Source: Escherichia coli (GTDB lineage: Bacteria; Pseudomonadota; Gammaproteobacteria; Enterobacterales; Enterobacteriaceae). Taken from it: a stretch of 64,000 bases of DNA. The DNA lies in the NCBI RefSeq assembly GCF_044324875.1, contig NZ_CP172185.1; one strand, 5' to 3'. A program made the position numbers. This document shows, one piece after another, positions 21,801 through 27,800 of the stretch (position 1 is its first letter; every line of letters starts with the position of its first letter).

Positions 21801-24800
21801 CTAATGTACCCGTGAAAATCTGCGTCATGTCGTAGTCGCGCCCCATGCGCGATGCTTCATGGAATTTCATCTGCAGCGGTGCATCGAACAGCATGGTTTT
21901 GCCTTCCACCTGATCAATATACGTTTGCAGTTTATCGACTTCATGCGACCAGTACTCTGCCACAATAAACAGCGGCTTTGGCGCAACTTCCTGTACGTGT
22001 TCGATCCACTCTTTATAAAACCACGCCGGAATATGTTTGACCGCATCAAGACGAAAACCGTCGCACTGCGTTTGTTCCATCACCCAGCGCGCCCAGTATT
22101 TAATCTCTTCCGTCACGGCATGATTGCGGAAATCGATATTCTCGCCCATCAGATAATCGAAATTACCTAATTCATCATCAACCTGATCGTTCCAGCCTTC
22201 GCCGGTGTAGTCGTTAACAATTTTAAATATGCCATCTTCATCAGGGTTTTCGATATGGTCGATACCGCTAAAACATTTGAAATCCCAGATAAACTGTGAG
22301 TATTGCCCGGCACGGGCGGGGAAGGTGTAACGCGTCCAGCCTTCGCACTCAATGATTTCTTCATCAATTTGCGTACGGTCGTCAGCATTTACACGCTGCA
22401 CGCGAATAGCTTCTTTTTCATCCGCGCCCATTTTGTGGTTGACTACCACGTCCAACAGCACCGCAATGTCATTACGTTTCAGGGCGTCAATGGCGGCCAG
22501 CAGTTGTACTTTATCGCCATATTTAGTAGGGATGCTGCCTTTCTGATCAAACTCACCTAAATCAAATAAATCATAGGAGTCGTAGCCGACCGAATACCCG
22601 CCCGATGCGCCTTTATAGGCGGGCGGCAACCAGACCATATTGATACCAATATCATTAAAACCGTCGGCGCGCTCGGCCAGTTCAGGCCAGAGCTTACCGC
22701 CTTCCGGGTAATACCAGTGAAAACATTGTAACAGCGTGGGATTACGCATTCTTCGACTCCATTCAAGGGGAACATTAGAAGCGTAGCCGTAATCGGATTA
22801 TTCGCGAGCCATCGACTCGTTCAGATTCAAAAGAGGTTATCCTGCGGAGCCAGCACAAAGCCGCCCTGATCACCATAGGCACTTAACACCGATTTTTGCA
22901 CCGATGACTGACCGACCAGTTTCGCCAGTTCATCCATCCGAATCTGTAATAACTGCTTTACCTTGCTTTCGTTGTCGAGAATCAGGCGCAGCATCGGGCG
23001 GAGCTGCTCCTGCATCATGGTGGACGGGTCAACCTCTTCAGTCAGATGTGCAATCTCCTGCACCGCATTCACATACGCCATTTCGCTGGCGATGAGTTCG
23101 TCCCATTGTTCTTCCGTTGCCAGGCGTAACATGAGCTGGCTTTTTTCGACGAGTTGTTGCCAGGCGAAATACAAATGCGGTGCGTGGTTCATCAGACTGG
23201 GTCCTGAATCAAAGAAGGGGAGAGTAACGACTCTTTCCAGGCATCGGCAATATTACGCATTAATGCTTCCACTTCTTCGACTGCGGAGACATCGTTGCGT
23301 AAATTGGCTTGCAGCAAGCGCCTGACCATATAGCTATAAAGAGCAATCAAGTTTTGGGTTAATTCGTCTTTGCTCTCTTCATCAAGACTCACCCGCAGTC
23401 CGTTCTCAATGATGTTGATCGCTTTTGACAATGAGACGCCTTTGCCTTGCTGATTGTTGTCCTGCATAAACAGGCGCGCTCTAACCAGTGCGCTCAGCAC
23501 TCCATCAAATAGCATGGTGACCAGCTGCTGTTGACTGGCGCTCATTACGGCGCTTTCGACGCCAATTTGTGCATAGGCCTGGGTGCCTTTTGCCGCGTAC
23601 ATGACCTGTCTCCCGATGAATAATGATTACTTGGAATTACTGTTGTTTTCGAACTGCTGCGTTAAGTAGCTGCTGGTGCTGTTTAACGAGGTCATTAAAA
23701 CGTCCAGTTGGGTAAATTGTTCTTTGTAGCGCGCGACCTGCGCATCAATGCGATCGCTGGCGGCGTTGTAGTCTTTAGTTAACTTATTCAGGGTCTTACT
23801 AACGCCATCGGTAGCGGCTTTAATAATGCCCGTTGTCGAAAGCCAACTAGTCAGGTTGCTGCCGATGGTGGTCGTGATACCGGTTTTTTTACCATCGCCA
23901 ACAATCAATGCACCTACGCCGCTGGCATCTTTTTTCAGTGCAGCGGTGAGTTTGTCGGCATCCAGCTCCAGTTTGCCATCGCTGGGATCGGTCGTGATAC
24001 CAATCTGCGCCAACGTTTTATAGTTGGAAGAACTGACGGTATTACTCAGCATCGACTTCAACTGCGTCTGAATCGTCCGCAACGTGGAGTCGCCGAGCAG
24101 TGCGCCATTGCTAGAACTCTGGCTATCAGCCCCCGCATCTACGGCGGTGTATTTGGTCAGGCTGCTGAAGGTATCTATTAGCGAGTTATAGGCATTCACC
24201 CAGTCTTTAATCGCCGTTTGCGCTTTGGAGGTGTCCTGAGTGATGGTTAGCGTCTGGTTGCCCGTGGTGACATCGTTCAGGTTCAGGGTGATGTTTTCCA
24301 GCGCGTCGCTGATGGTGTTGCTGCTGTTCTCAATGGCGACGTTGTTGACCGTCAGTTGCGCATTCTGAGCGGCGACCGAGACCTCCATGCCGTTGCTGCT
24401 GGCACTGGCGTCATAGCCCATAAAACTTTGTAGCGCATCATCACCGCTAACCGAGAGCGTCATCGCATTGTCAAGGCCGGTGTCATTTGATGTGACTGAC
24501 AGACGATATTCACCGTTACCCACGTTAATGATGCTCGCGCTAACACCCGCTTTTGCGTTGTTGATGGCATCACGGATCCCGCTTAACGATGAGTTAGCCG
24601 CGCTGATATCAATGGTAATCGGCTCTTTGTCGCCGCCTTGTTGAAGGGTGAGTTTGCTGTCGCTGGTGGCGATCGCCGTTTTCGTATCATCTCTGGTGGT
24701 GCGCGTGGTCAGGGTTTGCGCCTGCGCCAGATGGGTGACGCTGATGGTGTATTTCCCGGCGATGGCGTTACCCGCGGTGGTGGCACTGAACGCGGTGGTG

Positions 24801-27800
24801 CTGCTGGTGGTGCTGGTGGTGCTGGTGGCGGAAAAAAGATCGGCTTTAGACAATGCAGTATTGGCGGTCTGGAAAGTCGTCAGCGCGCTTTTCAGCGTAC
24901 CGTAGGCGCTAAGTTTAGCGGTAAACGACGATTGCTGATTTGAAATAGGGGTTAGCGTCGCTTTTTGCGCGGCGGTGAGGCTATCAAGGATTGAACTTAA
25001 ATCCAGGCCTGACCCGACTCCCAGCGATGAAATACTTGCCATGCGATTTCCTTTTATCTTTCGACACGTAAAACGAATACCGGGGTTATCGGCCTGAATT
25101 GCGCAAAGTTTACGTTTAATTGTTTTTTTTAATAGCGGGAATAAGGGGTAGAGAAAAGAGTATTTCGGCGACTAACAAAAAATGGCTGTTTGTGAAAAAA
25201 ATTCTAAAGGTTGTTTTACGACAGACGATAACAGGGTTGACGGCGATTGAGCCGACGGGTGGAAACCCAATACGTAATCAACGACTTGCAATATAGGATA
25301 ACGAATCATGGCACAAGTCATTAATACCAACAGCCTCTCGCTGATCACTCAAAATAATATCAACAAGAACCAGTCTGCGCTGTCGAGTTCTATCGAGCGT
25401 CTGTCTTCTGGCTTGCGTATTAACAGCGCGAAGGATGACGCCGCGGGTCAGGCGATTGCTAACCGTTTTACTTCTAACATTAAAGGCCTGACTCAGGCTG
25501 CACGTAACGCCAACGACGGTATTTCTGTTGCACAGACCACCGAAGGCGCGCTGTCCGAAATCAACAACAACTTACAGCGTATTCGTGAACTGACGGTTCA
25601 GGCCACTACCGGTACTAACTCTGATTCGGATCTGGACTCCATCCAGGACGAAATCAAATCTCGTCTGGACGAAATTGACCGCGTATCCGGTCAGACCCAG
25701 TTCAACGGTGTGAACGTACTGGCGAAAGACGGTTCGATGAAAATTCAGGTTGGTGCGAACGACGGCCAGACTATCACGATTGATCTGAAGAAAATTGACT
25801 CAGATACGCTGGGTTTGAATGGTTTTAACGTTAATGGCAAAGGTACTATTGCGAACAAAGCTGCTACAGTCAGCGATCTGACCGCTGCTGGTGCAACGGG
25901 AACAGGTCCTTATGCTGTGACCACAAACAATACAGCTCTCAGCGCTAGCGATGCACTGTCTCGCCTGAAAACCGGAGATACAGTTACTACTACTGGCTCG
26001 AGTGCTGCGACCTATACTTATGATGCGGCTAAAGGGAACTTCACCACTCAAGCAACAGTTGCAGATGGCGATGTTGTTAACTTTGCAAATACTCTGAAAC
26101 CAGCGGCTGGCACTACTGCATCAGGTGTTTATACTCGTAGTACTGGTGATGTGAAGTTTGATGTAGATGCTAATGGCGATGTGACCATCGGTGGTAAAGC
26201 CGCGTACCTGGACGCCACTGGTAACCTATCTACAAACAACGCCGGCATTGCATCTTCAGCAAAATTGTCCGATCTGTTTGCTAGCGGTAGTTCTTTAGCG
26301 ACAACTGGTTCTATCCAGCTGTCTGGCACAACTTATAACTTTGGTGCAGCGGCAACTTCTGGCGTAACCTACACCAAAACGGTAAGCGCTGATACTGTAC
26401 TGAGCACAGTACAGAGTGCTGCAACGGCTAACACAGCAGTTACTGGTGCGACAATTAAGTATAATACAGGTATTCAGTCTGCAACTGCGTCCTTCGGTGG
26501 TGCTAATACTAATGGTGCTGGTAATTCGAATGACACCTATACTGATGCAGACAAAGAGCTTACCACAACCGCATCTTACACTATCAACTACAACGTCGAT
26601 AAGGATACCGGTACAGTAACTGTAGCTTCAAATGGCGCAGGTGCAACTGGTAAATTTGCAGCTACTGTTGGCGCACAGGCTTATGTTAACTCTACAGGCA
26701 AACTGACCACTGAAACCACCAGTGCAGGCACTGCAACCAAAGATCCTCTGTCTGCCCTGGATGAAGCAATCAGCTCCATCGACAAATTCCGTTCATCCTT
26801 GGGTGCTATCCAGAACCGTCTGGATTCCGCGGTCACCAACCTGAACAACACCACTACCAACCTGTCCGAAGCGCAGTCCCGTATTCAGGACGCCGACTAT
26901 GCGACCGAAGTGTCCAACATGTCGAAAGCGCAGATCATCCAGCAGGCCGGTAACTCCGTGCTGGCAAAAGCTAACCAGGTACCGCAGCAGGTTCTGTCTC
27001 TGCTGCAGGGTTAATCGCCTGAATGCCTCTCAAACCCCGCTCCGGCGGGGTTTTTTACAATTGGCTTTTTGCGTAACCCCCAAATAACCCCTCATTTCAC
27101 CCACTAATCGTCCGATTAAAAACCCTGCAGAAACGGATAATCATGCCGATAACTCATATAACGCAGGGCTGTTTATCGTGAATTCACTCTATACCGCTGA
27201 AGGTGTAATGGATAAACACTCGCTGTGGCAGCGTTATGTCCCGCTGGTGCGTCACGAAGCATTGCGCCTGCAGGTTCGACTGCCCGCGAGCGTGGAACTT
27301 GACGATCTGCTACAGGCGGGCGGCATTGGGTTACTCAATGCCGTCGAACGCTATGACGCCCTACAAGGAACGGCATTTACAACTTACGCAGTGCAGCGTA
27401 TCCGTGGCGCTATGCTGGATGAACTTCGCAGCCGTGACTGGGTGCCGCGCAGCGTGCGACGCAACGCGCGTGAAGTGGCACAGGCAATAGGGCAACTGGA
27501 GCAGGAACTTGGCCGCAACGCCACGGAAACTGAGGTTGCGGAACGTTTAGGGATCGATATTGCCGATTATCGTCAAATGCTGCTCGACACCAATAACAGC
27601 CAGCTCTTCTCCTACGATGAGTGGCGCGAAGAGCACGGCGATAGCATCGAACTGGTTACTGATGATCATCAGCGAGAAAACCCGCTACAACAACTGCTGG
27701 ACAGTAATCTGCGCCAGCGGGTGATGGAAGCTATCGAAACGTTGCCGGAGCGCGAAAAACTGGTATTAACCCTCTATTACCAGGAAGAGCTGAATCTCAA

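What the first reader, a model, noticed from the sequence alone, without database searches (positions are those of the whole stretch)
24794..24829. Short 9-bp tandem repeat inside fliD
About four tandem copies of gctggtggt (plus strand) encode the Thr/Ser-rich run TSTTSTTSSTT in the variable middle of FliD. A repeat like this can expand or contract by slipped-strand mispairing in frame, and it may account for the 471-aa length here against the 468 aa I recall for K-12.
Basis: seen in the sequence. Interest (0 to 1): 0.3.

Follow-up and report, generated by a model that had tools for sequence, protein, structure and literature searches.

The report
In-frame 9-bp repeat in fliD
This E. coli strain has one extra copy of a 9-base (Thr-Thr-Ser) repeat in the flagellar cap gene fliD; it is a real but rare and ordinary slippage-type length variant that explains the 471-aa protein and shows no sign of being a fast-switching locus.

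Summary
The repeat is real and lies exactly where stated. On the coding (minus) strand, 24794-24829 reads GCC ACC AGC | ACC ACC AGC | ACC ACC AGC | AGC ACC ACC (TRF period 9, 3.7 copies), encoding A72-T83 of a 471-aa FliD. I call k the number of internal ACCACCAGC units. The window has k=2, K-12 has k=1 (468 aa) and O157:H7 has k=0 (465 aa), and these are the only indels across the whole gene. Among 3,188 complete E. coli genomes with this fliD type, 2,891 have k=1, 297 have k=0 (every one sampled is O157:H7) and none has k>=2. Among 73 metagenome contigs, 72 have k=1, 1 has k=0 and none has k>=2. The window's exact protein does occur on 7 other public contigs. O55:H7 DEC5D and O157:H7 differ by 4 SNPs in 3.1 kb plus exactly one unit. 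The repeat is not in the 'variable middle', though. It is the D1-to-D2 linker plus the first D2 strand, a segment whose length is conserved across FliD proteins. Changes are rare and clonal, not hypervariable. This is an ordinary finding of low interest.

The parts
23627..25042 (-). fliD CDS, 471 aa, flagellar filament cap protein; followed on the same strand by fliS (23192-23602) and fliT (22827-23192), and divergent from fliC (25308-27014, +)
   Evidence: ORF list; NCBIfam NF005955 equivalog 677 bits, FliS TIGR00208, FliT NF007836, FliC NF005953; Pfam FliD_N 11-109 and FliD_C 225-455; 99% identical to PDB 5h5v apart from the 3-aa gap
24794..24829 (-). Whole repeat array, codons A72-T83: GCC ACC AGC | ACC ACC AGC | ACC ACC AGC | AGC ACC ACC
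   Evidence: Sequence, TRF period 9, 3.7 copies, score 59, codon layout
24812..24820 (-). Perfect unit ACCACCAGC (T75 T76 S77). This unit or the next one is the extra copy relative to K-12; the two cannot be told apart
   Evidence: Alignment with K-12, C289 and O157:H7; whole-gene alignment places the only gap at gene columns 215-223
24803..24811 (-). Second perfect unit ACCACCAGC (T78 T79 S80)
24821..24829 (-). Imperfect first unit GCCACCAGC (A72 T73 S74), present in all group-A alleles
24791..24799 (-). ACCACCGCG, first copy of a second 9-nt direct repeat that overlaps the end of the array (T82 T83 A84)
   Evidence: Sequence. The Shigella flexneri 462-aa FliD P0006 lacks exactly AFSATT, the interval between the two copies. 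The DNA-level mechanism is inferred from the protein
24773..24781 (-). ACCACCGCG, second copy (T88 T89 A90)
   Evidence: Sequence
24832..24837 (-). T6 homopolymer (A6 on the + strand) in codons L69-F70-S71, immediately 5' of the array on the coding strand
   Evidence: Sequence. Strain VE-V11-M has T5 here and its fliD is annotated as a frameshifted pseudogene

Best explanation
This is a cryptically repetitive stretch of Thr/Ser codons in fliD. In the common allele the preferred codons ACC and AGC already give about 2.7 copies of a 9-nt period. In the lineage of this window it gained one ACCACCAGC unit (+Thr-Thr-Ser) by a local in-frame duplication, most likely replication slippage. The reciprocal loss of one unit happened once on the branch leading to O157:H7. 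The segment encodes the linker from the long D1 helix into the first beta-strand of domain D2 of the flagellar cap protein, which is one of the two chain crossings at the D1-D2 hinge. The extra three residues most likely just lengthen that linker, with little or no effect on function. The locus changes rarely and each state is inherited clonally. It is not an on/off or rapidly varying switch. Shown here: the repeat, the unit-sized indels, their frequencies, and the position in the structure. Inferred: slippage as the mechanism, and near-neutrality.
For: The indels are exact units inside the array with identical flanks. They are the only indels across whole fliD genes. Strain 18KM2445 is identical to the window over the first 600 nt of fliD except for the one unit. 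O55:H7 DEC5D and O157:H7 differ by 4 SNPs in 3.1 kb plus one 9-nt gap. Both units in the window use identical codons, which only 2 of 500 synonymous re-codings reproduce. Counts: 2,891 k=1, 297 k=0 and 0 k>=2 among 3,188 group-A complete genomes; 72, 1 and 0 among metagenome contigs. All sampled k=0 genomes carry the same FliD (WP_000146755.1) and H7 flagellin, and the k=0 metagenome contig is 99.97% identical to O157:H7. The allele is not an artefact: the exact 471-aa protein is on 7 other contigs and has four NCBI accessions, and L007 is identical to the window over 7,416 nt. Structure: the MSA-based AlphaFold model has pLDDT 94, with helix 15-64, coil 70-75, strand 76-80, turn 81-84 and strand 85-89. 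It matches the E. coli D2-D3 crystal structure 5h5w at TM 0.98, rmsd 0.7 A. Salmonella domain limits put D1 at 44-72 and D2 at 72-103 (PMC12855180). The D1-D2 angle varies from 56 to 84 degrees among cap subunits (PMC12221982). From established knowledge, O157:H7 is normally motile with H7 flagella, so a spacer three residues shorter is compatible with function.
Against: No mutation rate was measured, so slippage is inferred from the pattern only. No complete genome carries a k=1 allele identical to the window's across the whole gene (the best has 9 mismatches), so the immediate parent allele was not seen. The F70-to-G96 spacer is 22-23 residues in 121 of 133 diverse FliDs (range 21-25). That argues for selection on length and makes strict neutrality of 19 (O157:H7) or 25 (the window) uncertain. 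Genome counts rest on BLAST identity bands, not on reading every allele. Strain 98224 shows a +3-nt change (an extra ACC), so not every event is a full unit.
Confidence: 0.85

Rival explanations
1. It is a contingency (hypermutable) locus: the repeat changes copy number often, generating antigenic or functional variants of the exposed cap protein within populations.
For: It is a tandem repeat in a surface-exposed flagellar protein, and three length states plus a +3-nt variant exist in E. coli.
Against: The array has only 2.7-3.7 copies. The unit is 9 nt, so no frameshift switching is possible. 2,891 of 3,188 genomes from very diverse lineages share k=1, k=0 is confined to one clone, and k>=2 is absent from 5,426 complete genomes and 73 metagenome contigs. 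About half of k=1 alleles carry ACT or ACA interruptions, which reduce repeat purity further. The same 8-residue length is kept in E. albertii, Kluyvera and Pseudocitrobacter.
Confidence: 0.04
2. The length change is adaptive: altering the D1-D2 linker by three residues tunes cap hinge geometry, for example to match a particular flagellin type, or alters an epitope or adhesion surface.
For: The segment lies at the D1-D2 hinge, whose angle changes during flagellin insertion (PMC12221982). Spacer length is strongly conserved across the family, so departures could matter. The k=0 allele is fixed in a successful pathogen clone.
Against: Fixation in O157:H7 is equally expected from clonal hitch-hiking. 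O55:H7, with the identical H7 flagellin protein (WP_000079722.1), has k=1, so length does not track flagellin type. The nearest relatives with the same 568-aa flagellin length (23 nucleotide differences in fliC) as the window have k=1. No functional data exist.
Confidence: 0.08
3. The extra unit is a sequencing or assembly artefact, or was imported by recombination from a longer foreign allele.
For: No complete RefSeq E. coli genome shares the allele. fliD is a recombination hot region with three deeply divergent allele groups in E. coli.
Against: The identical protein is on 7 contigs from other assemblies, including a 5.75-Mb contig. The flanks are 100% identical to ordinary E. coli group-A alleles. 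The other allele groups (B, JJ1886-like; C, H10407-like) have no such repeat and no longer segment here, so no donor is known.
Confidence: 0.03

Closest known systems
E. coli K-12 fliD (468 aa, WP_000146784.1; crystal structures 5h5v and 5h5w)
   Same: Same gene, same synteny, about 98% nucleotide identity, same array with the same first and last units.
   Different: K-12 has one internal ACCACCAGC unit where the window has two; this is the only indel.
E. coli O157:H7 fliD (465 aa, WP_000146755.1)
   Same: The same array changed by the same unit size, which shows the reciprocal event at the same site.
   Different: It is a contraction to zero internal units, fixed in a whole clone (297 complete genomes). 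The window's expansion is seen only in a handful of assemblies.
Simple-sequence contingency loci of Haemophilus, Neisseria and Campylobacter (my own knowledge: phase variation through repeat slippage)
   Same: The presumed mutational mechanism: slipped-strand mispairing in a tandem repeat within a surface-structure gene.
   Different: Those arrays are long, change at high rates and usually shift the reading frame or promoter spacing. This one has fewer than 4 copies, is always in frame, and is stable across thousands of genomes.
In-frame VNTRs within coding regions, as used for MLVA typing of E. coli and O157:H7 (my own knowledge)
   Same: Unit length divisible by three, and copy-number alleles that change protein length without disrupting it.
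   Different: MLVA loci vary among closely related isolates. Every k=0 genome examined (13, counting one metagenome contig) belongs to O157:H7, though whether all O157:H7 genomes are k=0 was not checked. The site might mark the lineage but would be useless for fine typing.

Membership tests
FliD flagellar filament cap protein | Matches the curated equivalog model above its cut-off and has both Pfam FliD domains | tested here: met
   NF005955 677 bits against a cut-off of 387; PF02465 at 11-109 and PF07195 at 225-455
FliD flagellar filament cap protein | Gene context fliC <-> fliD-fliS-fliT | tested here: met
   ORFs and NCBIfam hits for all four genes
FliD flagellar filament cap protein | D0-D1 helical leg plus D2-D3 beta head fold | tested here: met
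   Model pLDDT 94; Foldseek TM 0.98 to 5h5w, 0.81 to 5h5v and 0.80 to Salmonella 9gnz
Short tandem repeat with slippage-type copy-number alleles | Head-to-tail copies of one unit with high identity | tested here: met
   TRF period 9, 3.7 copies, 95% matches
Short tandem repeat with slippage-type copy-number alleles | Allelic length differences are whole units, lie inside the array, and have conserved flanks | tested here: met
   k=0/1/2 alleles. One exception of +3 nt (an extra ACC) in strain 98224
Short tandem repeat with slippage-type copy-number alleles | Slippage demonstrated as the mutational process (rate, dependence on repeat purity or mismatch repair) | not testable with these tools
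   Needs fluctuation or deep-sequencing experiments
Contingency / phase-variable simple-sequence locus | Copy number varies frequently among closely related isolates | tested here: not met
   2,891 k=1, 297 k=0 (one clone) and 0 k>=2; 72/1/0 in metagenomes
Contingency / phase-variable simple-sequence locus | A length change switches expression (frameshift or promoter spacing) | tested here: not met
   The unit is 9 nt and inside the CDS; all three alleles are intact ORFs of 465, 468 and 471 aa
Ser/Thr-rich O-glycosylated linker | A dedicated glycosyltransferase or evidence of modification | not tested
   Considered only as a remote possibility. No search for glycosylation genes in the window was made

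The most novel reading that the evidence does not exclude
Natural E. coli FliD alleles with 19-, 22- and 25-residue spacers between the D1 helix and the D2 core lie at or beyond the edges of the range seen in 133 diverse FliDs (21-25): 19 is below it and 25 is at its upper edge. The length of this linker could tune the D1-D2 hinge angle, and through it the kinetics of flagellin insertion or the cap's fit to the filament. In that case the O157:H7 contraction and this expansion would be functional variants and not neutral ones.
Probability: 0.07. Interest if true: 0.4.

Novelty: new member of a known kind. Interest (0 to 1): 0.12.

Why it matters
It matters little. The result explains a 3-aa length difference in a well-studied protein. 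It shows that O157:H7 carries a clone-wide 9-bp contraction that O55:H7 DEC5D lacks, which may be a simple lineage marker. It also provides three natural linker lengths at the FliD D1-D2 hinge that structural biologists could use to test how much linker length matters. A practical caution follows: a 471-aa FliD in E. coli is not diagnostic of this expansion, because the divergent group-B allele (for example ST131 JJ1886) is also 471 aa without any repeat.

Tried and rejected
The single-sequence AlphaFold run gave pLDDT 42 and was discarded; it was replaced by an MSA-based run. A metagenome scan restricted to alleles longer than k=1 found nothing, and a second scan gave the denominator of 73 contigs. 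I searched for an otherwise identical k=1 parent allele in complete genomes and found none; the best has 9 mismatches. Literature searches for an earlier description of a fliD repeat or of the O157:H7 9-bp deletion found nothing relevant in the held library, which does not prove that none exists. One search failed on term syntax. Plus-strand ORFs that overlap the repeat (24638-24943 and 24648-24905) were dismissed as shadow ORFs opposite a well-supported gene. I did not read the roughly 860 genomes inferred to carry group-C fliD beyond one example (H10407), and I did not determine the H type of the 568-aa flagellin.
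Full report
OBSERVATION. The plus strand at 24794-24829 reads ggtggtgct gctggtggt gctggtggt gctggtggc. 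Tandem Repeats Finder reports period 9, 3.7 copies, 95% matches, score 59 at 24796-24828. That is the highest-scoring array in the whole 64-kb window. The stretch lies in the minus-strand ORF 23627-25042 (471 aa). This ORF is FliD: NCBIfam equivalog NF005955 at 677 bits against a cut-off of 387, flanked by fliS and fliT and divergent from fliC. It has Pfam FliD_N at 11-109 and FliD_C at 225-455. On the coding strand the array is GCC ACC AGC | ACC ACC AGC | ACC ACC AGC | AGC ACC ACC, encoding A72 TSTTSTTSSTT83. The description and the coordinates are therefore correct.

CHANCE. Seven of 100 dinucleotide-preserving shuffles of the window contain some array scoring at least 59, so the bare pattern is only modestly unusual at window scale. 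Only 2 of 500 codon shuffles of fliD reach that score. Only 2 of 500 synonymous re-codings of the same protein, using the gene's own codon usage, reach it either, although about half of the re-codings give a weak array. A Thr/Ser run written in the preferred codons ACC and AGC is therefore inherently semi-repetitive. The perfect identity of the two internal units points to a recent duplication at the DNA level.

COMPARISON OF ALLELES. I call k the number of internal ACCACCAGC units. An alignment of the window with six complete genomes shows that the length differences fall exactly in the array. O157:H7 has k=0 (465 aa), K-12 and most strains have k=1 (468 aa), and the window has k=2 (471 aa). 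Strain 98224 has k=1 plus one extra ACC (469 aa). The flanks are identical. In whole-gene alignments these are the only indels, and the PDB alignment to the K-12 construct 5h5v shows the same single 3-residue gap. The extra unit therefore fully accounts for 471 versus 468 aa.

FREQUENCIES. Of 5,426 complete E. coli genomes, 3,188 carry this fliD type, which I call group A. Synthetic 123-nt and 132-nt queries that differ only in k split these cleanly. With the k=0 query, 297 genomes match at 99% or better. With the k=1 query, 2,891 match at 95% or better. No record falls in the band expected for k>=2. Every k=0 genome sampled is O157:H7. Four that have no serotype in their names carry the same FliD (WP_000146755.1) and the same H7 flagellin (WP_000079722.1) as a named O157:H7 strain. 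O55:H7 DEC5D has the identical flagellin and FliS proteins but k=1. Over 3.1 kb it differs from O157:H7 by four SNPs plus exactly one 9-nt gap, which makes a near-isogenic before-and-after pair. In metagenome contigs, a variable-gap pattern found 72 with k=1, one with k=0 (99.97% identical to O157:H7) and none with k>=2. About half of the k=1 alleles carry ACT or ACA in the unit, which interrupts the repeat.

IS THE WINDOW'S ALLELE REAL? No complete RefSeq genome has it. However, the exact 471-aa protein occurs on 7 contigs in other public assemblies, including one of 5.75 Mb, and it has four NCBI accessions. One of those contigs (L007) is identical to the window over 7,416 nt. The nearest complete-genome relatives with the same 568-aa flagellin length (23 nucleotide differences in fliC) have k=1. 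Strain 18KM2445 is identical to the window over the first 600 nt of fliD apart from the one unit. This fits a local duplication and not imported DNA.

OTHER ALLELE GROUPS. E. coli has at least two further, deeply divergent fliD types. Group B covers 1,324 genomes at about 73-77% nucleotide identity, for example ST131 JJ1886. It is also 471 aa but encodes TSTTSSSS with mixed codons and no repeat. Group C is Salmonella-like (ETEC H10407, 470 aa, KSTTVTSSNEDLKVST) and also has no repeat. The size of group C, about 860 genomes, is inferred by subtraction, and only one member was read. In E. albertii, Kluyvera and Pseudocitrobacter the T/S stretch has the same 8-residue length as K-12. k=1 is therefore the ancestral state.

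POSITION IN THE PROTEIN. A paper on the Salmonella FliD structure gives D1 as residues 44-72 and 268-411 and D2 as 72-103 and 223-268 (PMC12855180). Salmonella and E. coli align without offset up to this point, and the E. coli D2-D3 crystal construct begins at about residue 71. An AlphaFold model built on a 133-sequence alignment has mean pLDDT 94. It shows helix 15-64, coil 70-75, strand 76-80, turn 81-84 and strand 85-89; the 71-80 block has the lowest confidence (85) outside the two chain termini, apart from block 331-340 (83). The model superposes on the E. coli D2-D3 crystal structure with TM 0.98 and rmsd 0.7 A. The repeat therefore encodes the D1-to-D2 linker, the first D2 strand and the following turn. 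In the native Salmonella cap the angle between D0-D1 and D2-D3 ranges from 56 to 84 degrees among the five subunits (PMC12221982), so this is a working hinge. In 133 diverse FliDs the spacer between the conserved F70 and G96 is 22-23 residues in 121 cases, with a range of 21-25. K-12 has 22, the window has 25 and O157:H7 has 19.

MECHANISM. The best-supported account is rare replication slippage, or an equivalent misalignment between 9-nt units, in a cryptically repetitive run of codons. It gave one expansion in this lineage and one contraction on the O157:H7 branch, and each is inherited clonally. Slippage itself is inferred, not shown. Because the unit is 9 nt, the gene stays in frame, so there is no phase variation. 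From established knowledge, O157:H7 is normally motile with H7 flagella, so a change of three residues in this linker is tolerated. Whether the changes are strictly neutral is open, given how well the spacer length is conserved across the family.

RIVALS. A contingency locus is excluded by the low copy number, the in-frame unit and the near-invariance across thousands of genomes. An artefact is excluded by the independent assemblies. Import by recombination lacks any donor. An adaptive change in hinge length cannot be excluded, but the identical H7 flagellin occurs with both k=0 and k=1, so length does not track flagellin type.

VERDICT. The feature is real, correctly described and correctly interpreted, apart from its location in the protein. 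It is an ordinary in-frame short tandem repeat polymorphism. I found no published description of it, but the kind is thoroughly known. Interest is low.

Noticed in passing
window 24832-24837 (T6 on the coding strand, codons 69-71 of fliD): The homopolymer run sits directly next to the repeat. Strain VE-V11-M has T5 here and its fliD is annotated as a frameshifted pseudogene. This could be a real inactivation or a homopolymer sequencing error.
   Followed up: partly
window 24773-24781 and 24791-24799: A second 9-nt direct repeat (ACCACCGCG twice, starts 18 nt apart, i.e. 9 nt between copies) brackets exactly the AFSATT segment that is missing from a 462-aa Shigella flexneri FliD (P0006, 21 member sequences). 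A 431-aa Shigella allele (P0069, 244 members) has a larger deletion that starts in the T/S run. This small region seems prone to microhomology deletions in non-motile Shigella.
   Followed up: partly
fliD of complete E. coli genomes (loci L008-L011): E. coli carries three deeply divergent fliD allele groups: A in 3,188 genomes, B in 1,324 genomes at about 73-77% nucleotide identity, and C, Salmonella-like, in roughly 860 by subtraction. In group-C genomes the similarity to the window's fliS stops about 24 nt short of the fliD-proximal end of fliS, which suggests a recombination breakpoint inside fliS.
   Followed up: partly
O157:H7 vs O55:H7 (loci L087-L091): The 9-bp contraction in fliD separates O157:H7 (all 13 sampled) from O55:H7 DEC5D, even though the flagellin and FliS proteins are identical. 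It may be a simple lineage marker. Other O55:H7 strains and sorbitol-fermenting O157:H- were not checked.
   Followed up: partly
window 26496-26532 (inside fliC): An 18-bp period, 2.1-copy imperfect tandem repeat (GGTGCTGCTAATACGAAT, TRF score 46) lies in the variable central part of the 568-aa flagellin gene.
   Followed up: no
window 25308-27014: The flagellin is 568 aa. The closest complete-genome relative (AST215) has 23 nucleotide differences across fliC, and no complete RefSeq genome exceeds 98.2% identity over the whole fliT-fliC block. The H type was not determined.
   Followed up: no
protein P0002 (database hit, 613 aa, 7 member sequences): This is a FliD-FliS fusion-length protein (Pfam FliD_N, FliD_C and FliS) that is 99% identical to FliD. 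It is presumably a stop-codon loss or an assembly or annotation read-through between fliD and fliS.
   Followed up: no
window 51431-51459: A 14-bp period, 2.2-copy tandem repeat (CGTCGATTATCAG-like, TRF score 42) that was not examined.
   Followed up: no
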